A stretch of DNA of 64,000 bases from the NCBI GenBank assembly GCA_963669175.1, contig OY769902.1, forward strand, positions 3,616,001 through 3,680,000. The letters run 5' to 3'. Every line of letters begins with the position of its first letter. Within the stretch, counting starts at the first letter, position 1. Position numbers and translations under genes: made by a program. The DNA is from a bacterium (GTDB taxonomy: Bacteria > Electryoneota > Electryoneia > Electryoneales > Electryoneaceae). Shown here in pieces: positions 11,698 to 58,002 of this stretch. The notes below the pieces were generated by a model, which was not told the DNA's origin, ran no database searches, and was given only the letters and a program-made list of their open reading frames with translations.

Positions 11698-12857
11698 TGC
11701 CATTTTAGATCAAGTTAACTCGTTTATCGCGATGGTCTGACTGACCTTTCAGCTTGTGTTTGTTTCGGTATCGCAGATAAGCCTGGATAGCTTGGCCCTG
11801 TTCTTGATGGTCCATGAAGGTTCGTCCTCGTAGCGCGAATTTTTTCAATGCGGCGAAGTGAGCTTCGATGCGGTTCAGCCATGATGCATAGGTCGGCGTG
11901 AAGACCAGCGTGACCCGGTTTCGTTTGGCCCATTGTCTGATTTCTGCTTTTTTATGCGAGCCACGGTTGTCGAGGATGATGTAGAGCCGGACAGTGGACG
12001 GATAACGTTTCCGAATGTTTTTGAAGAACGCCAACACCTCTGGCCACCGCTGGTTTGGACGTTGCCAGCCCCACAATTGATCACTGTGGATGTCATACGC
12101 TGCCAGCAGATAGCGCGTGCCATGGGTACGCGTATAGGTAGCCGGCAGACGGACGGGTTGCTTGTGAGGATGCCAGCTCGCACCCGCGTGGGGCCGGATC
12201 TCCAGCGGCCCGAACTCGTCAAAGCAGATCACGCGCCGGTTTGCCTTCGGCGGCGCGTCATAGAGACGTCGGATGCGTTTTTTTTTCTGTCAAACTCGGG
12301 GTCCGGAGACTGTTTCCATGTCTTACTCTGCTGATAGCTGATCTTATTCTTGTGCAGCAACCAGCGCAGGTGCGGCAGGCTGATCGATTCGATGATGCCT
12401 TCTGCGACCAGATAATCGCGAAGCTTCTCCAGGGACCATTGGCCGAAGGGTAAGCCGAGATGGTCTGGCGGCGTAACAACAACGTCAACGATCTGCTTCT
12501 GGACAGCAGCATCGAACTTGAGCGGCTTCTGGCCTTTGTACTGACTGCCAACACAGGAAAGACCCTGTTCATTGAAAGCATGAACGATCTTGCGGATGTA
12601 ACTGGCATGCCCCATCCGTTGCTGCTGAAGCTGCACAGGGGACAGGCCGGTATCTGTCGCCAACAAAATCATCGCACGGCGACGGGCTACGGGATCAGGA
12701 CTACGATCACGAATCCGTTGAAGGGAATGACCTTCATCGACTGTCAAAGAACGAAGCTTCACTGGGGTAGACATCAGAACCTCCTTGTTAACCTACCCCT
12801 TATACGCACTACTTTCAAAAACGACTCAACACTCAGACTTGATCTAAACTGGCACTA
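11695..12857 (-). mobile_element. IS630-family insertion sequence, complete, with TA target duplication
   Basis: TIRs GTGCCATTTTAGATCAAGT and ACTTGATCTAAACTGGCAC (18/19 match); CTAG at both junctions (11694-11697, 12855-12858). Confidence 0.92.
11705..12774 (-). CDS. IS630 transposase in two ORFs (12774-12229 HTH; 12232-11705 DDE) joined by a probable -1 frameshift
   Basis: An A9C slippery run (T9 at 12278-12286 on +) joins ...PDPEFDRK to KRIRRLY...VICFDEFGP. DDE motifs ILDNRGSHK and TPTYASWLNRIE. Confidence 0.88.
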
Positions 12858-13132: not shown

Positions 13133-13380
13133 GGTAAAAATGGGACTGCTACCTTTTCATCTTTATGAAATCTGAACTTTGAATCACAAGTTTCCTAAAA
13201 GTGTAGCTGTATCAGATTATTCGCCAGTTTGTTGTTCGAGATTAGCCGAAAATCCTGGGACAGCTACCTTTTCTGCTATTTGTTTACGTTATGACTGCCC
13301 GTATTCATCTGTACAGCCCGTCATTACCCCTGTATTCAGAGAATGTCGCTTGCAGAAAAGTGTAGCAGTCCCGATTTTCT
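13133..13380. repeat. REP block 3 (inverted orphan copy of the RAYT-flanking block)
   Basis: AAAAATGGGACTGCTACCTTTTCATC ... AAAATCCTGGGACAGCTACCTTTTCTGC ... GCAGAAAAGTGTAGCAGTCCCGATTTTC. Confidence 0.85.
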
Positions 13381-13549
13381 TGCGGATTTAGTTGTGCAGT
13401 TTGATCCTTTTGGGATCGTGCAATTCAAAATCCAACGCGCAGAGTGCACATTTATCTTTGTTGGAACAATTCAGATGACAGTGTATCAAATCAGGAAATC
13501 ACTTGGTGAAGCAACAGAGGAAATGTATCAGATCGGGATTCTGACAACC

Positions 13550-13577
13550 AAAAAGCCGGCCCGAAGGCCGGCTTTTT
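13550..13577 (-). terminator. Intrinsic terminator (symmetric A/T tails) ending the putative ncRNA
   Basis: AAAAAGCCGGC-CCGAAG-GCCGGCTTTTT. Confidence 0.8.
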
Positions 13578-14142
13578 GGAGGTCGGAAAATCGGCGTCGA
13601 GGGGAAACGCCGAAGGCGAACTTGCGTGGGGATCGCCACACTTCGGGAACCGTATCTTTTTCAATGCAATCCCTAGCAAGCAGTGCATGTAAAACTATGG
13701 AAGGCTTCCTGCTTCCAGAGGCGCTTCAGTGCCGTTCTCACAATCAGGGTGGGAAGCCCGTACAAAGTGAAGTATGCCTTGAAACCGTCTTAAAACCGTG
13801 CTTGTAAACCGTGCCAGCAATCAAATCAAGAAACCGTGCCAGTCGTCAGTGCAGGTAACCGTGCTAGTAGTCAAATCTCGAAATCGTAAGTTCTTCAGTG
13901 CATGTTACCGTGCCAGTAGCAGTGCTGGTAGATCGTGCAAGTAAACCGTACGGGAAACCGTGCATGTAGTCCGTACTAAAAGCATGAGAACGACGTGACT
14001 TGTTCTGGACCCGAAATCAAAGAAATCGTGCTATGTATCACCAACCGGGTCGCTGAAACCGTGCTAAGTTGATCGTGCCCTTTTCCCAGCCAACGCTCCA
14101 AGGAAGCCTTCCAAATATTCAAAGATCAATCGCAAGCTCTGC
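13550..14142 (-). ncRNA. Putative ~590-nt sigma54-dependent ncRNA with repeated GCACG motifs (sponge-like)
   Basis: Sigma54 promoter upstream, terminator downstream, two long-range closing helices, 10 exact GCACGR motifs and no credible ORF. Confidence 0.65.
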
Positions 14143-14152
14143 ACATGGTTTA

Positions 14153-14168
14153 TGCAACCATCATGCCA
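14153..14168 (-). promoter_or_regulatory. Sigma54 (-24/-12) promoter
   Basis: Minus strand TGGCATGATGGTTGCA versus consensus TGGCACG-N4-TTGCW, with exact spacing. Confidence 0.75.
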
Positions 14169-14612
14169 AGAAATCATCGACTGGGAGACTGAAAACAGGA
14201 AAGGACAAATTCATTGACAATTAAAGACTTAGATGCCATTCTTTCGTTTATTGACTTTCAGGTCAAGAAAATTAACCATGCATCGTCAGAACAGGCTGTG
14301 CATATTTTGCATCAACTATCAAACTGTTTGCACAACACTGCACAAATAATTTGACAATCAGTGAGTCATTGCACCTGCAATGGTGTTTTCTGAGCTGCGC
14401 GCTTTGCCGCAAGACAAGGCGCATTCCCAAATCATAGCAGGGTATTTTAAAGGAATGGAACGACGTCACGAACGATGCGGTACGCACCCTTCGGGCTTGT
14501 CACGAGGCTGCTGTCTTCCGTGTTTATCTCGTTTAAGTAATCCGTTATATCTGCATCTAATCGTCTTTGCGGCCAACTCGCCCTTACCCCACGATCCATG
14601 TGAATCGGTCCA

Positions 14613-15407
14613 CTAAAACCTGAGTTGCAAAGAAATACCGGGACGGATTCCCATACCTGTTTCGAGCAGAGTAGGCTCAATAACCGTTTGCGTTTCCAGT
14701 TCAGGCGGCGTAAAGAAGGCATCCAGGACATTGACTACCCAGACAGTACCGAGTGCTATACCCACGTAATTCCGCATATGGACGGCGTTTTTATACTCAT
14801 CGTATATCCCGGAAAGGGCGTCTGGATTATGACTGTTGTGGTAATCATCATCCAGACGGTTCACTTCAGACTGTGCTACGCCCAAGCCAACAATCAAGAC
14901 TCCTGTAATACCTATATAGGTCCATCCCCTCGTCTTCTGCCCTTTGTAGAGCTGCCCCAATCCGGGGAAGAACAAGCTACGCCTGGCGCCACCGTTTCGC
15001 AGCGCGCAAGCCATCAGCATTTCGTCTGTAGAATGAAAGCGTTGCTGCCCTAGCGCATTAAAGTCATCACGCGCCTGGTTGAATACTGCAAGGATCTTGG
15101 GCGAGGTTAATGTTGGATCAACCCTCAAGCGTGGATTCAGGCTTAACGCATTAATAAACTGCTCTTTGCCTGCTTCACGGTCCCCCCTGGCAACGGAGAT
15201 ATAGGCCAGGTACCTGTGCAATTCTGCCAGGTCAATCTCTGACAGAGATGAAGACCTGCTTACATGGCGCAGGGCCACAAGCTCAGCTTCATCAAGCATT
15301 CCCTGATCGTAAAGGTTCTTTACTTCATTGAGCGGGTCGATCGATGTTTCCTGTGCAAAAACAGGGACTGCCAACAAAAGGACGATCAACAACCTGTATC
15401 GCATCAT
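14613..15407 (-). CDS. Exported TPR-containing protein with C-terminal DUF5683-like membrane domain
   Basis: Signal peptide, TPR-like helices, RSLFFPGLGQLYKGQ motif and a terminal ...ISLQLRF. Confidence 0.7.
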   Translation of the reverse strand: MMRYRLLIVLLLAVPVFAQETSIDPLNEVKNLYDQGMLDEAELVALRHVSRSSSLSEIDLAELHRYLAYISVARGDREAGKEQFINALSLNPRLRVDPTLTSPKILAVFNQARDDFNALGQQRFHSTDEMLMACALRNGGARRSLFFPGLGQLYKGQKTRGWTYIGITGVLIVGLGVAQSEVNRLDDDYHNSHNPDALSGIYDEYKNAVHMRNYVGIALGTVWVVNVLDAFFTPPELETQTVIEPTLLETGMGIRPGISLQLRF

Positions 15408-15700
15408 CCGTACCTGTATTTAATCCCTTTCCCGCCCACCGGATAAAACCAGTGAACGTATTCCGGCGACGTTACGTGACAAGTACCACATTCAACACAG
15501 TTTTCATGATTAACGATACATTCCCCGGTATTGGGATCTTCTTCGTATACCTTCGCCGGGCAGACATAAGTAATAGGACGTGGATGCCGTGGGTCAGCCT
15601 TGTATTTCTCCTGGTCAACGCGGATATGGCTGGCTTTATCCCAATTGTACTGGTTCAGACCAAGTTTATCTTCGATGGTTACCGGATTTTCTTTACTCAT
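15404..15700 (-). CDS. fixX: Ferredoxin-like protein FixX
   Basis: VCPAKVY, ENCVECGTC, WFYPVGGKGIKYRYG; coupled to fixC. Confidence 0.88.
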   Translation of the reverse strand: MSKENPVTIEDKLGLNQYNWDKASHIRVDQEKYKADPRHPRPITYVCPAKVYEEDPNTGECIVNHENCVECGTCHVTSPEYVHWFYPVGGKGIKYRYG

Positions 15701-17010
15701 CGCAGCACCCTCCCGGCTTTGAACATATCCACAGCCATACGCCAATAACCGATTTCTTCTTTAACGCGCTTCAGGATTGCATCTTCCACATCCTGTTTGG
15801 GCGTCTCGTCTATGGTGAAGTAGTCCTGGATAACTTCTGAGACAAATGTTGGATACTGTTTCAGGTAATGTGGGAATTTGTTGAAGAAATCGGGCATCTT
15901 TCTGAATTTGAACATATCCTTGAGGATAAAGGAATTCTCCATCTTGTCCCGATAATGCGCTACCGCTTCCATCGTATTCAGTTCATGCCCATGTTCTTTT
16001 GCTTCGATCAGCGTTTCCGCCGCCAGAATACCACTTCCCATGGCAAGGTTGGTGCCTTCATGGTACAGGCTGGCATTGATCAGACCGGCAGTATCGCCAA
16101 CCAGCATCAGGCCGGGCATGGCAAAATGCGGCAGGTGATTGTACCCGTAGTCAGGAATCATGTGCGCCAGGTACTCAACCGATTCAGCGCCTTCCAGCAT
16201 CTTGCGGATGGTTGGATGCTTCTTGAATCCTTCAAGGAAATCATTCAGGGTTTGCTTTGAAGCAATCAGTTCCTTGATGGTAAGGCCCAACCCGATCGAG
16301 ACGGTATCTTCATTAGTATAGACGAATCCCATGCCGAAGCGACCTTTCACGACATCGCCGAAATACTCCATGGCGACGCCTTCCTTGCCCTCAAGCATGA
16401 ACCTGTCTTCGATTTTTTCTTTGGGGAGACTAAAAACTTCCTTCACATTGGCGATCATGTGCGTTTGCGGCAATACCGGCGCCATTAATCCGGCCTGACG
16501 CGCCAGGAATGCGTGTACACCTTCAGCAGAGATGACAATTTTAGCCCTGATCTCGTCACCGCCCGGTTCCGTCTTGACGCCAACAACCCTGTCATCCTCA
16601 ATCAACAGTTCGCTGACCATCATCTCCGGGATAACATTCACGCCAAGCGCTTCCGCCTGGCCCGCGAACCACTGATCAAACCTGCCACGAAGCGCTGTCA
16701 CTGTATGGTTATATGGTTTATCACGCCAGGGCGCGACCTTTACATCCAGCGCAATTTCAGAGTCTTCGGACAACATGCCGAAACGGCGACGGGTTACAGA
16801 CCGTTCCAGGGGAGCTTCTTCCCAGGTATCGGGAAGCAGTTTCAAGAGTTGGTGAGTAAAGAGAATTCCGCCGTACACATTTTTGGAACCAGGGTATTCC
16901 CCACGTTCCAAAACCATAATTTCTTCAAAGCCAGCTTGTGCCAGACGGATAGCGGCTGCAATACCTGCAGGCCCCGCACCAATAATGACAACCTCAAATT
17001 CTTCATCCAT
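15697..17010 (-). CDS. fixC: FixC / ETF-quinone oxidoreductase family flavoprotein
   Basis: GAGPAG, LERGEYPGSKNVYGG, VGDTAG and HEGTNLAMGSG. Confidence 0.88.
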   Translation of the reverse strand: MDEEFEVVIIGAGPAGIAAAIRLAQAGFEEIMVLERGEYPGSKNVYGGILFTHQLLKLLPDTWEEAPLERSVTRRRFGMLSEDSEIALDVKVAPWRDKPYNHTVTALRGRFDQWFAGQAEALGVNVIPEMMVSELLIEDDRVVGVKTEPGGDEIRAKIVISAEGVHAFLARQAGLMAPVLPQTHMIANVKEVFSLPKEKIEDRFMLEGKEGVAMEYFGDVVKGRFGMGFVYTNEDTVSIGLGLTIKELIASKQTLNDFLEGFKKHPTIRKMLEGAESVEYLAHMIPDYGYNHLPHFAMPGLMLVGDTAGLINASLYHEGTNLAMGSGILAAETLIEAKEHGHELNTMEAVAHYRDKMENSFILKDMFKFRKMPDFFNKFPHYLKQYPTFVSEVIQDYFTIDETPKQDVEDAILKRVKEEIGYWRMAVDMFKAGRVLR

Positions 17011-21832: not shown

Positions 21833-21904
21833 TGACCCCTAGGGGAATCGAACCCCTGTTGCCGGGATGAAAACCCGAGGTCCTAACCACTAGACGAAGG
21901 GGTC
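21833..21904 (-). tRNA. tRNA-Glu(TTC)
   Basis: GACCCCTTCGTCTAGTGGTTAGGAC...TTTTCAT...GGTTCGATTCCCCTAGGGGTCA cloverleaf. Confidence 0.95.
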
Positions 21905-21968
21905 GTCAACAGCGCGTAAGTATAAGGTATCGGGAAGCGGAATTCAACCCATCCTACTCCTGCCTCCA

Positions 21969-22046
21969 TGGGGTCCGAGACGGGACTTGAACCCGTGACC
22001 TCCTGATCCACAGTCAGGCGCTCTAACCAACTGAGCTACACGGACC
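21969..22046 (-). tRNA. tRNA-His(GTG)
   Basis: GGTCCGTGTAGCTCAGTTGGTTAGAGCGCCTGACTGTGGATCAGG...GGTTCAAGTCCC...CCCA, with encoded G-1 and CCA. Confidence 0.95.
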
Positions 22047-26694: not shown

Positions 26695-26771
26695 TGGTAC
26701 GCCCGTTGGGACTCGAACCCAAAACCCCCGGCTTAGAAGGCCGGTGCTCTATCCGGTTGAGCTACGGGCGC
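26695..26771 (-). tRNA. tRNA-Arg(TCT)
   Basis: GCGCCCGTAGCTCAACCGGATAGAGCACCGGCCTTCTAAGCCGG...GGTTCGAGTCCCAACGGGCGTACCA. Confidence 0.95.
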
Positions 26772-26868
26772 ATTACGGTCGAGCTACCGTGCTCCTTCAA
26801 CCGTATCGCTTGGATGCTGTGAACGTCCATGAAGGTCATCGCACAGGCAATCCAAAGAAAAACAACGA

Positions 26869-26944
<76 letters not shown>

Positions 26945-57816: not shown

Positions 57817-58002
57817 GAAAGCCCTGCACCTCACGCAGGTTACAAAAGAAGAACCAACACTTTAGAAAAGGGAGTTCGACTTCGGTGGTGGCTGGCATGC
57901 CTCCCTGCCTCGCAGGCTAGAGGAAGTCAAATACTACTGGGCGGACACCCACCGTGTTGTACACGGTTCTCTCTTCTTTGCCTGTGGGGGTGTTGGGTTT
58001 TT
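57817..58002 (+). ncRNA. ssrS: 6S RNA
   Basis: ~185-nt rod (GCCCTGCACCTCACGCAGG pairs with CCTGTGGGGGTGTTGGG) with a central bubble; zapA-ssrS-rny synteny. Confidence 0.85.

What the first reader, a model, noticed from the sequence alone, without database searches (positions are those of the whole stretch)
13550..14168. Large sigma54-driven ncRNA with an array of GCACG motifs: candidate new protein-sponge RNA
Seen: a near-consensus sigma54 promoter on the minus strand (TGGCATGATGGTTGCA, 14168-14153, +1 near 14142) and an intrinsic terminator at 13577-13550 bracket ~590 nt with no credible ORF. The ends are clamped by two long-range helices: GAGCUUGCG (14139-14131) with CGCAAGUUC (13626-13618), and a perfect 13-bp UGGAAGGCUUCCU (14113-14101) with AGGAAGCCUUCCA (13710-13698). 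The enclosed region holds 10 exact GCACGR motifs, mostly GCACGGUUU (near 13792, 13806, 13831, 13856, 13905, 13931, 13955, 14023, 14056, 14071). About 10 variants (GUACGG, GCACUG, AGACGG, UUACGA) are also present, irregularly spaced. Known: this layout matches titrating RNAs such as CsrB/RsmZ (GGA motifs) and the sigma54-dependent CrcZ (AANAANAA motifs), but the motif is neither. Inference: a previously undescribed sponge RNA for an unknown GCACG-binding protein.
Basis: partly seen in the sequence, partly recalled or inferred. Interest (0 to 1): 0.9.

Follow-up and report, generated by a model that had tools for sequence, protein, structure and literature searches.

The report
Sigma54-driven RNA with GCACGG repeats
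This is a real, expressed, roughly 590-base non-coding RNA from an undescribed family found across a small bacterial phylum; its many copies of one short motif suggest that it soaks up an unknown RNA-binding regulator.

Summary
A near-consensus sigma54 promoter (14168-14153, minus strand) and a terminator (13577-13550) bracket about 590 nt with no conserved reading frame. This stretch holds 10 GCACG and 7 GCACGG on the RNA strand, none antisense: the densest GCACGG cluster in the 5.45-Mb genome. No Rfam family matches. A same-genus homologue is conserved from promoter to terminator only. Metatranscriptome contigs from four studies lie entirely inside the predicted transcript. The 13-bp long-range helix is kept through compensatory changes in 7 of 7 related species.

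The RNA belongs to a phylum-wide family. Its members share a sigma54 promoter, TGCAC-repeat upstream sites and a conserved position (DUF5683-like gene, then the RNA, then tRNA-Pro or icd). They carry from 1-2 invariant GCACGG elements to arrays of more than 10.

The genome lacks CsrA, Hfq, ProQ and RRM proteins. In this genome GCACGG is enriched, sense strand only, just upstream of type IX secretion cargo genes. That was a post hoc finding and did not recur in two other genomes.

My best reading, at about 0.5, is a titrating RNA for an unidentified GCACGG-binding factor. The partner and the targets remain unproven.

The parts
14296..14344 (-). Candidate enhancer (UAS) for the sigma54 activator: GTGCAGTGTTGTGCAAAC and GATGCAAAATATGCACAG, 128-176 nt upstream of the promoter
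   Evidence: Read. TGCA(C/A) repeats at about 10-nt spacing lie 90-180 nt upstream of the sigma54 promoter in homologous loci of families f1, f3, f5 and f6. The binding protein is inferred, not shown.
14153..14168 (-). Sigma54 promoter TGGCATGATGGTTGCA (-24 GG / -12 GC elements)
   Evidence: one of 11 strict intergenic matches. Conserved as TGGCATACCCCTTGCA in the same-genus genome. A promoter of this type stands at the same place in homologues. rpoN is present.
13550..14142 (-). Predicted transcript, about 593 nt (+1 inferred near 14142 from the promoter geometry)
   Evidence: Identity to the G001 homologue is 0.67 inside this span against 0.38 upstream of the promoter. Metatranscriptome contigs cover only 13582-14127. 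The exact ends were not mapped.
14131..14139 (-). P1 5' strand GAGCUUGCG
   Evidence: Pairs with 13618-13626. The same helix is found in G001. G009 has UGAAACUUGCG/CGCAAGUUUCG, one pair added on both strands and G-U changed to A-U.
14101..14113 (-). P2 5' strand UGGAAGGCUUCCU
   Evidence: This is the top 5'/3' stem in 7 of 7 related f1 RNAs at the homologous place, with compensatory changes.
13793..14078 (-). Motif array: 10 GCACG(G/A), of which 7 are GCACGG and 5 are GCACGGUUU, interleaved with GCACUG and GUACGG variants. Two more GCACUG start at 13732 and 13686.
   Evidence: The logo from 67 sites in 11 RNAs is C-N-R-GCACGG-U-U-Y-M-C. The commonest GCACGG-to-GCACGG spacing is 24-26 nt (coordinates).
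13698..13710 (-). P2 3' strand AGGAAGCCUUCCA
   Evidence: It closes the domain that holds the array.
13618..13626 (-). P1 3' strand CGCAAGUUC
13591..13613 (-). 3' hairpin with a C-rich loop (GGCG-UUUCCCCUCGA-CGCC)
   Evidence: MFE fold. An equivalent hairpin with a changed stem sequence and a UUUCCCC-type loop is present in G004, G005, G008, G009 and G014 (read by eye).
13550..13577 (-). Intrinsic terminator (7-bp GC stem, UUCG loop, U5), usable in both directions
   Evidence: Conserved in G001. RNA contigs from two runs stop at 13582.
14613..15407 (-). Upstream neighbour: DUF5683-like protein, 264 aa, the syntenic anchor of the RNA
   Evidence: Atlas look-alikes. Weak DUF5683 Pfam hits in orthologues. 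A homologue is found in 76 of 79 genomes of the phylum.
15697..17010 (-). FixC / ETF-quinone oxidoreductase-like gene upstream of the anchor gene
   Evidence: etfB and etfA stand at this place in family f3.
11705..12774 (-). IS630-type element (HTH_32 and DDE_3 ORFs) downstream of the RNA. It probably displaced the ancestral downstream neighbour.
   Evidence: In relatives the RNA is followed by tRNA-Pro (f1) or icd (f3, f6).

Best explanation
The locus encodes a sigma54- and enhancer-binding-protein-dependent structured regulatory RNA of about 590 nt. It belongs to an undescribed family that is conserved across most of a small FCB-group phylum.

Two long-range helices (P1, P2) close a domain in which GCAC(G/U)G(UU) elements are displayed without any complementary partner in the RNA. 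In this organism the element has been amplified to 10-15 copies at about 25-nt spacing.

The most likely mechanism is titration. When the unidentified activator fires the sigma54 promoter, the RNA accumulates and sequesters a trans-acting factor that recognises single-stranded GCACGG. That factor is most likely a protein and possibly a dimer. Sequestration would relieve or alter the factor's action on mRNAs that carry the same motif next to their ribosome-binding sites. In this genome those mRNAs are preferentially ones for proteins secreted by the type IX system.

Shown: the transcription unit, its conservation, its expression in nature, the P2 helix, the motif statistics and the absence of CsrA, Hfq, ProQ and RRM proteins.

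Inferred: the start site, the activator, the single-strandedness of the motifs, the existence and nature of the binding factor, and the regulon.
For: Unit and conservation:
- Promoter, terminator and no conserved ORF.
- Conservation begins at the promoter and ends at the terminator.

Expression:
- Five contigs from 4 metatranscriptome runs in 4 studies, at 90-99% likeness (one under 95%), lie wholly within 13582-14127. None crosses either end.

Structure:
- P2 is kept in 7 of 7 f1 RNAs. Relative to G000, U:A becomes G:C in G006 and G007. G008 has three doubly changed pairs. G009 and G004 have different flanks around a GAAGG/CCUUC core.
- The f6 alignment of 10 sequences gives 95 predicted pairs, 24 of them with compensatory changes.

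Motif:
- Counts are 60- to 1600-fold above expectation and the cluster is unique in the genome.
- GUGC is absent from 9 of 13 family RNAs, which hold 4-44 GCAC.
- The motif is invariant in f6 RNAs, where two copies lie about 40 nt apart start to start. This arrangement would suit a dimer.
- Copy number ranges from 1-2 to more than 10 among homologues, as expected if copy number sets capacity.

Competing sites in mRNAs of this genome:
- GCACGG on the sense strand within 150 nt upstream of type IX cargo genes: 19 of 298 against 35 of 2188 other genes (OR 4.2, p 6e-6). The reverse complement gives 4 of 298 against 24 of 2188.
- GCACGG ranks 1 of 60 composition-matched permutations and 8 of 2892 6-mers, the seven above it all being AT-rich.
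- Sites cluster at -45 to -9, just 5' of GGAGG.
- One gene keeps the site at a fixed distance from the Shine-Dalgarno sequence in G000, G001 and, as GCACGA, in G003.

Other:
- The mRNA sites have the same sense as the RNA motif, not the complementary sense. This fits competition for one factor rather than pairing between the RNA and the mRNAs.
- The known global RNA-binding regulators are absent.
Against: - No partner was identified.
- KhpA, the only small KH protein, is absent over the cut-off from family f3 (0 of 16) and from G005, G011 and G014, all of which have the RNA. It is present in f9, where no RNA was found.
- Thermodynamic folding does not predict the motifs to be less paired than the rest of the RNA (mean pair probability 0.61 against 0.59).
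- Many family members carry only 1-2 motif copies, which would be weak sponges.
- The type IX association was noticed first in 9 genes and tested afterwards. It rests on crude gene calls.
- With the same pipeline the association did not recur. G008 gave 2 sense against 2 antisense in 60 genes, and G030 gave 5 against 5 in 80 genes.
- Genome-wide, GCACGG is not enriched near starts (rank 6 of 60, 1.03-fold). GCACGGTT is enriched only about 1.9-fold.
- Contigs cannot show the strand, the ends or the level of the RNA.
Confidence: 0.5

Rival explanations
1. The RNA acts by base pairing. The reiterated GCACGGUU elements would be seeds that pair with AACCGUGC-containing RNAs, either mRNA targets or a small RNA that the locus sponges.
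For: A conserved, unpaired, invariant 8-9-nt element is typical of seed regions. Homologues with a single element look like ordinary trans-acting small RNAs. Sigma54-dependent base-pairing small RNAs are known (Qrr, recalled).
Against: The complement AACCGTGC is rare near gene starts: 4 sites in -80 to +40 against 15 for the sense motif in -80 to +20. It is not enriched upstream of type IX genes (0 of 298). No repeated intergenic copy that could be a partner small RNA was seen among the 27 intergenic sites outside the RNA. Ten or more identical seeds in one RNA are unusual for a pairing regulator. The enrichment seen in mRNAs has the same sense as the RNA motif.
Confidence: 0.2
2. It is a structured RNA whose function is not titration, for example a scaffold, a ribonucleoprotein component or a regulator of one enzyme or of the transcription machinery. 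The array would then be lineage-specific expansion of a structural module.
For: The f6 members are compact, highly structured RNAs of about 420-450 nt with extensive covariation and only two motif copies in an invariant domain. The position next to central-metabolism genes (etf/fixC, icd) is conserved. 6S-like or GlmY-like single-partner RNAs exist (recalled).
Against: Copy number varies from 1 to more than 40 while the scaffolds differ between families. This is easier to explain by selection on the number of sites than on one architecture. A separate 6S RNA is present in the window.
Confidence: 0.2
3. The motif acts at the DNA level. The array would be a cluster of binding sites for a DNA-binding protein, perhaps the activator itself, whose upstream sites also contain TGCAC. 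The transcript would be incidental.
For: The upstream enhancer-like repeats (TGCAC-N5-TGCAC) share GCAC with the RNA motif. The motif also lies upstream of genes, where operators lie.
Against: P2 covaries as an RNA helix around the array. All copies are on one strand at 12-13- and 24-26-nt spacing, not the roughly 10-nt spacing of the upstream sites. The transcript is abundant enough to assemble in four metatranscriptomes. In 6 of the 20 type IX genes with the motif a promoter-like element lies upstream of it, and in 2 downstream.
Confidence: 0.07
4. The region encodes one or more small proteins.
For: Short ORFs of 30-65 aa exist on the minus strand, and a 154-aa ORF on the plus strand.
Against: No Pfam hit for the 154-aa ORF. 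Thirteen of 14 gap runs against the same-genus homologue break any frame. Conservation follows RNA helices and a strand-specific motif.
Confidence: 0.03

Closest known systems
CrcZ (Pseudomonas; sigma54- and CbrB-dependent RNA that sequesters Hfq/Crc). Properties recalled, not from a call.
   Same: Sigma54 promoter with upstream activator sites. Several hundred nucleotides long. Several reiterated single-stranded motifs. No coding capacity. Proposed output of a nutrient-sensing signalling pathway.
   Different: The motif is GCACGG(UU), not A-rich AANAANAA. No Hfq gene in the genome. No Rfam match. A different phylum and different neighbours. Two long-range closing helices.
CsrB / RsmX-Y-Z family (CsrA/RsmA sponges). 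Properties recalled.
   Same: Variable copy number of a short motif among homologues, variable scaffolds, and a dimeric-partner logic. A link to secreted products if the type IX association is real.
   Different: No GGA-in-loop motif as the repeated element. No CsrA gene. A sigma54 promoter rather than a GacA/UvrY-dependent sigma70 promoter. No Rfam match.
GlmY (sigma54-dependent decoy RNA for RapZ in enterobacteria). Recalled.
   Same: A sigma54-driven RNA that acts by sequestering a protein. The one- or two-site homologues of families f5 and f6 resemble a single-partner decoy.
   Different: No sequence or Rfam similarity. No GlmZ-like twin was seen. The element is amplified to arrays in several lineages.
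ToxI-type antitoxin RNAs of type III toxin-antitoxin systems. Recalled.
   Same: An array of a repeated RNA element that binds a protein.
   Different: ToxI repeats are regular tandem units next to the toxin gene. Here the spacing is irregular (12-35 nt). The neighbours are a DUF5683-like gene, fixC/etf, tRNA-Pro or icd. The promoter is sigma54-dependent.

Membership tests
CsrB/RsmZ-type CsrA sponges | Cognate CsrA/RsmA protein encoded in the genome | tested here: not met
   PF02599 gave 0 matches in the single-contig genome (95.9% complete). The control rang in 3 reference genomes.
CsrB/RsmZ-type CsrA sponges | Match to the curated RNA models (CsrB, CsrC, RsmX/Y/Z) | tested here: not met
   No such hit at the gathering threshold in the window or in 12 homologous loci, nor at E up to 10 in 13300-14500.
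CsrB/RsmZ-type CsrA sponges | The reiterated element is A(N)GGA presented in hairpin loops | tested here: not met
   The reiterated element is R-GCACGG-UUY (logo of 67 sites). GGA was not counted separately.
CrcZ/CrcY/CrcX | Sigma54 promoter with upstream activator sites | tested here: met
   TGGCAT-N5-TTGCA at 14168-14153, with TGCA repeats upstream. Binding of an activator was not tested.
CrcZ/CrcY/CrcX | A-rich AANAANAA motifs and an Hfq (with Crc) partner | tested here: not met
   PF17209 (Hfq) gave 0 matches. The motif is GC-rich. There is no Rfam CrcZ hit.
Protein-titrating (sponge) RNAs as a functional class | Discrete, expressed non-coding transcript | tested here: met
   Strand and ends were not mapped, because contigs only were available.
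Protein-titrating (sponge) RNAs as a functional class | Multiple copies of one short motif, far above chance, strand-specific and conserved in homologues | tested here: met
   However, f5 and f6 members have only 1-2 copies.
Protein-titrating (sponge) RNAs as a functional class | The same motif in the regulatory regions of target mRNAs | tested here: inconclusive
   Enriched upstream of type IX cargo genes in G000. Not seen in G008 (60 genes) or G030 (80 genes). The hypothesis was post hoc.
Protein-titrating (sponge) RNAs as a functional class | A cognate binding protein that is sequestered | not testable with these tools
   Inventory of G000: RRM 0, CsrA 0, Hfq 0, ProQ 0, PUF 0 (control silent), CSD 4, KhpA 1. 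KhpA was rejected on its phyletic pattern.
Type III toxin-antitoxin antitoxin RNA (ToxI-like) | Regular tandem repeats directly upstream of the toxin gene | tested here: not met
   Motif spacing is irregular (12-35 nt). Flanking genes are DUF5683-like and IS630.
6S RNA | Match to RF00013 | tested here: not met
   The window's 6S RNA is a separate gene at 57818-58002 on the plus strand.

The most novel reading that the evidence does not exclude
An FCB-group phylum that lacks CsrA, Hfq, ProQ and RRM proteins has its own global post-transcriptional switch. An unknown protein would bind GCACGG next to the ribosome-binding sites of mRNAs, in this organism chiefly those of the very large type IX secretome (about 330 genes). 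A sigma54/activator-controlled RNA would titrate that protein, with a capacity tuned in evolution by amplifying a 25-nt unit from 1-2 to more than 40 copies. This would be a third, independent invention of the Csr/Rsm and Crc logic, with a new protein family still to be found.
Probability: 0.3. Interest if true: 0.9.

Novelty: new variant of a known kind. Interest (0 to 1): 0.78.

Why it matters
Global RNA-binding regulators and their decoy RNAs are known almost only from Proteobacteria and Firmicutes. In the FCB group, post-transcriptional control is largely uncharted, and the usual proteins are missing here.

This family offers a concrete, testable entry point:
- It is conserved in at least 40 of the 79 genomes examined in this phylum.
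- It is transcribed in wastewater, wetland and rhizosphere communities.
- It has a defined 6-9-nt bait sequence that could be used directly for a pull-down.

If the link to type IX cargo genes holds, the RNA would control the extracellular enzyme repertoire of abundant environmental degraders. Even if the sponge model fails, this is a new structured RNA family with covariation support and a conserved sigma54 regulatory input.

Tried and rejected
1. Scan of genome contigs with three GCACGGTT within 32 nt of each other. None of the 119 loci had a sigma54 promoter within 700 nt upstream. The 14 I read were regular tandem repeats or coding repeats. This says nothing either way about presence of the family outside the phylum.

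2. The looser 6-mer triple pattern in the phylum. It was noisy: the controls rang too, and G007 and G005 carry unrelated repeats. It added only G046.

3. Other GCACG or ACGGTT clusters in the genome (530465, 3017250, 3818400, 5393900). They are perfect tandem repeats, unrelated to this RNA.

4. Genome-wide enrichment of the motif near starts. It is weak: GCACGG ranks 6 of 60 and GCACGGTT is 15 observed against about 8 expected.

5. The pattern motif + Shine-Dalgarno + ATG. It does not discriminate in G000 (rank 17-42 of 60), so it was not run across genomes.

6. Replication of the type IX association in G008 and G030. No strand asymmetry was seen (2/2 and 5/5). The samples were small (60 and 80 top-scoring genes), starts were guessed, and upstream regions were not trimmed at neighbouring genes.

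7. KhpA as the partner. Rejected on its phyletic pattern.

8. Cold-shock genes that begin AUGCACGG. The MHGKVKWF start occurs in only 3 of 79 genomes, and one copy uses CAT. It is a coding coincidence.

9. RNAduplex on long halves. It gave uninformative global duplexes, so ungapped stems were used instead. Shuffled controls there reach 14-16 bp when G-U pairs are allowed. Stem length alone is therefore not significant. The argument for P2 rests on homologous position and compensatory change.

10. A second strict sigma54 promoter identical to that of the G014 RNA (G000 3978107). It drives a different RNA of about 130 nt without GCAC.

11. Naming the phylum. Two Atlas calls gave only FCB-type look-alikes, so the phylum is left unnamed.

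12. Literature. GCACGGUU matched anywhere gave 13 papers, of which the 10 listed were unrelated. Three keyword searches gave listings only, with nothing relevant. I read passages of PMC9723704 through the find mode and they were not relevant. On the strength of these four searches and Rfam 15, I found no description of this RNA in print.

No metagenome-contig scan, covariance model, structure prediction or complex prediction was run.

What I say about CsrB, RsmZ, CrcZ, GlmY, Qrr and ToxI is recalled from memory, not taken from a call.
Full report
THE OBSERVATION

On the minus strand the window reads TGGCATGATGGTTGCA at 14168-14153. At 13577-13550 there is a GC-rich hairpin (GCCGGCC-UUCG-GGCCGGC) followed by U5. 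The promoter is one of only 11 strict intergenic TGGCAY-N5-TTGCW matches in the 5.45-Mb genome. The genome encodes sigma54 and 11 ORFs with the GAFTGA signature of sigma54 activators, none of them near the locus.

Between promoter and terminator the RNA strand holds 10 GCACG, 7 GCACGG and 5 GCACGGTTT, and none on the opposite strand. Genome-average expectations are 0.44, 0.12 and 0.003. No other 400-nt window in the genome has more than 3 GCACGG. The other dense GCACG or ACGGTT clusters are perfect tandem repeats of a different kind.

ORFs are short, and the one 154-aa plus-strand ORF has no family.

IT IS A GENE FOR AN RNA

A genome of the same genus (G001) has a homologue. Identity is 0.67 between the promoter and the terminator but 0.38 upstream of the promoter. 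Thirteen of 14 gap runs are not multiples of three.

Five assembled contigs from four metatranscriptome runs lie on the region. The runs come from four studies: wastewater, two wetlands and rhizosphere. Likeness is 90-99%, with one contig under 95%. Every contig lies within 13582-14127 (13759-14116, 13582-13740, 13720-14127, 13582-14089, 13814-14089), and none reaches the flanking DNA. Contigs cannot give strand, ends or level, and DNA can contaminate RNA libraries. Still, cover confined to the predicted unit in four studies is what a discrete, abundant transcript would give.

No Rfam 15 family reaches its threshold in the window or in 12 homologous loci. With permissive thresholds only terminator-like noise appears.

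A FAMILY ACROSS A PHYLUM

The collection holds 79 species genomes of the phylum, whose name I could not establish. Type IX secretion domains and DUF5683-like neighbours place it in the FCB group.

Two GCACGGTT within 32 nt occur in 18 of 79 genomes, against 3 for the reversed control. After reading the loci, 13 of these genomes hold a sigma54 promoter, a motif array and a terminator. The rest are coding-sequence chance hits.

Searching by synteny found many more members.

- A DUF5683-like gene is present in 76 of 79 genomes. In the 30 best loci it is followed at 130-480 nt by a sigma54-type promoter in 7 of 13 f1 genomes and 7 of 7 f5 genomes. I read four of the f5 loci.
- In f5 the -12 element is TTGTA. 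Most RNAs there are about 200 nt with one or two GCAC(U/G)G. G033 and G036 have arrays.
- In f6, 16 of the 19 genomes examined have a sigma54 promoter 700-1000 nt upstream of icd. It drives a compact RNA of about 420-450 nt.
- No such promoter was seen upstream of icd in the 4 f2 and 5 f9 genomes examined.
- In f3 the order is etfB-etfA-DUF5683-RNA-icd. In f1 it is fixC-DUF5683-RNA-tRNA-Pro, with rearrangements. In the window an IS630 element follows the RNA.

Upstream of the promoters in all four families lie TGCA(C/A) repeats at about 10-nt spacing. These are presumably sites for one conserved activator.

STRUCTURE

In each of the seven f1 RNAs that sit beside the DUF5683-like gene, the best ungapped stem between the first 110 nt and the 3' part falls at the homologous place. 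It changes by compensation:

- G000: UGGAAGGCUUCCU / AGGAAGCCUUCCA
- G001: UUGGAAGGCUUCCU / AGGAAGCCUUCCAA
- G006, G007: GGGAAGGCUUCCU / AGGAAGCCUUCCC
- G008: GAAACAAUGAAGGCUUCU / AGAGGCCUUCAUUGUUUU
- G009: GAAUGAAGGACC / GGUUCUUCAUUC
- G004: CGAAGGCACU / GGUGCCUUCG

Stems of this length arise by chance when G-U pairs are allowed (shuffles reach 14-16 bp). The evidence is therefore the position and the paired changes, not the length.

P1 recurs in G001. In G009 it has an extra pair on both strands.

Ten f6 RNAs align to a consensus of 95 pairs, 24 of them with compensatory changes. A long helix encloses an almost invariant stretch carrying two GCACGG about 40 nt apart, start to start.

THE MOTIF

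From 67 sites in 11 RNAs the logo is C-N-R-GCACGG-U(81%)-U(87%)-Y-M-C. A GCAC(U/A)G often follows 12-13 nt downstream. Among the pairs of GCACGGTT listed for true members, the commonest spacing is 24-26 nt (coordinates).

The complementary word GUGC is absent from 9 of 13 RNAs that hold 4-44 GCAC. The elements therefore have no partner within the RNA. Plain thermodynamic folding, however, does not mark them as unpaired.

Copy number ranges from 1-2 (f5, f6) to 7-11 GCACGG and up to 44 GCAC (f1, f3).

WHAT MIGHT BIND

The single-contig genome has no RRM, CsrA, Hfq or ProQ match. It has four cold-shock-domain genes and one KhpA. The PUF search was uninformative.

KhpA over its cut-off is missing from all 16 f3 genomes and from G005, G011 and G014, which have the RNA. 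It is present in f9, where I found no RNA. It is not the partner.

Two csp genes begin AUGCACGG. That start is confined to 3 genomes and is not kept at the synonymous site.

POSSIBLE TARGETS

Genome-wide the motif is barely enriched near crude gene starts. Of nine genes with GCACGGTT in a likely 5' leader, five encode proteins with the type IX C-terminal sorting domain. I then tested this idea on the whole genome.

- About 330 of 3421 crude genes carry that domain (own HMM). The tool scored 150 of 340 candidates.
- GCACGG occurs, sense strand, within 150 nt upstream of 19 of 298 such genes, against 35 of 2188 others (OR 4.2, p 6e-6).
- GCACGGTT occurs upstream of 7 of 298 against 6 of 2188 (OR 8.8, p 3e-4).
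- The reverse complement shows nothing (4 of 298 against 24 of 2188).
- GCACGG ranks first of 60 composition-matched words.
- In an unbiased scan it is 8th of 2892 6-mers. The seven above it are AT-rich, promoter-like words such as TAGTTT.
- The sites cluster at -45 to -9, just 5' of GGAGG.
- For one gene the site is kept at the same distance from the Shine-Dalgarno sequence in G000 and G001, and as GCACGA in G003.

Against this, the hypothesis was formed after looking at the data and the gene starts are guesses. With one pipeline applied to all three genomes the results were as follows:

- G000 type IX genes: 26 sense against 4 antisense.
- G000 other genes: 74 against 65.
- G008, same family, 60 genes: 2 against 2.
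- G030, another family, 80 genes: 5 against 5.

The association is therefore established for this genome only.

MECHANISM AND RIVALS

Several facts together fit a titrating RNA best, and the sigma54-dependent CrcZ and GlmY are functional precedents (recalled):

- The promoter is signal-controlled.
- The elements are reiterated, strand-specific and have no partner within the RNA.
- A helix closes the display domain.
- Copy number is evolutionarily plastic.
- In this genome the same-sense motif sits beside ribosome-binding sites.

I put this reading at about 0.5.

- A pairing mechanism (0.2) is disfavoured. Complementary sites are scarce, and the mRNA motif has the same sense as the RNA motif.
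- A non-titrating structured RNA (0.2) remains open, because the f6 and f5 forms have only one or two sites.
- A DNA-level role (0.07) and coding (0.03) are unlikely.

COMPARISON AND NOVELTY

The RNA works most like CrcZ or CsrB but fails their membership tests on motif, partner and Rfam model. I found no description of it in Rfam 15 or in four literature searches.

I class it as a new variant of a known kind. It is a new RNA family with a new motif and presumably a new partner, within the known logic of decoy RNAs.

Noticed in passing
window 57818-58002 (+): A 6S RNA gene (RF00013, 64.4 bits). Four tRNA genes lie at 21833-22045 and 26698-26944 on the minus strand.
   Followed up: no
G000:C1:3978107-3978260 (+), outside the window: A second strict sigma54 promoter (TGGCATATGAATTGCA) is followed by a hairpin-rich stretch of about 130 nt ending in a terminator, with no GCAC motif. 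It is a candidate second sigma54-dependent small RNA.
   Followed up: partly
G000:C1:530465-530650 (+), 3818400-3818750, 5393900-5394500 (+), 3017250-3017360 (-): Several perfect tandem-repeat arrays with units of about 29, 59, 56 and 14 nt. Three of them share a TGTCAGGTCTTG core, which suggests one family of minisatellite-like elements.
   Followed up: no
G000 genome-wide, upstream of type IX cargo genes: TAGTTTA and related AT-rich words are the most enriched 6- and 7-mers upstream of the roughly 330 type IX cargo genes (TAGTTTA in 24 of 298 against 26 of 2188). This may be a dedicated promoter element for the secretome. The secretome itself is unusually large, about 10% of crude genes.
   Followed up: partly
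window 14296-14344 (-) and homologous loci: The enhancer-like repeats upstream of the sigma54 promoter (TGCAC-N5-TGCAC) share the GCAC core with the RNA's own repeated motif. I cannot tell whether this is coincidence or feedback, with the activator also touching the RNA.
   Followed up: no
L134, L135, L136 (family f3), about 250-900 nt downstream of the motif arrays: A further conserved, apparently structured stretch, for example AACCCGCTGATGA ... ACCAACCTCC(C/T)TGG, lies between the array and icd. It may be the 3' domain of the same RNA or a separate element. It has no Rfam hit.
   Followed up: no
G007, many contigs (one search list): A dispersed short repeat GCAAGCACGGAGG..., 2-3 copies per site at more than 25 sites, unrelated to the sigma54 RNA.
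   Followed up: no
G046:C58 and C182 contig ends; G038 and G047 loci (L138, L152): In family f3 the arrays are built from higher-order repeats and extend over more than 1 kb. They sit at contig ends in one assembly, so such RNAs are probably under-assembled in metagenome genomes and their distribution is under-counted.
   Followed up: partly
window 11705-12774 (-): An IS630-type transposase split into HTH_32 and DDE_3 ORFs lies directly downstream of the RNA's terminator.
   Followed up: no
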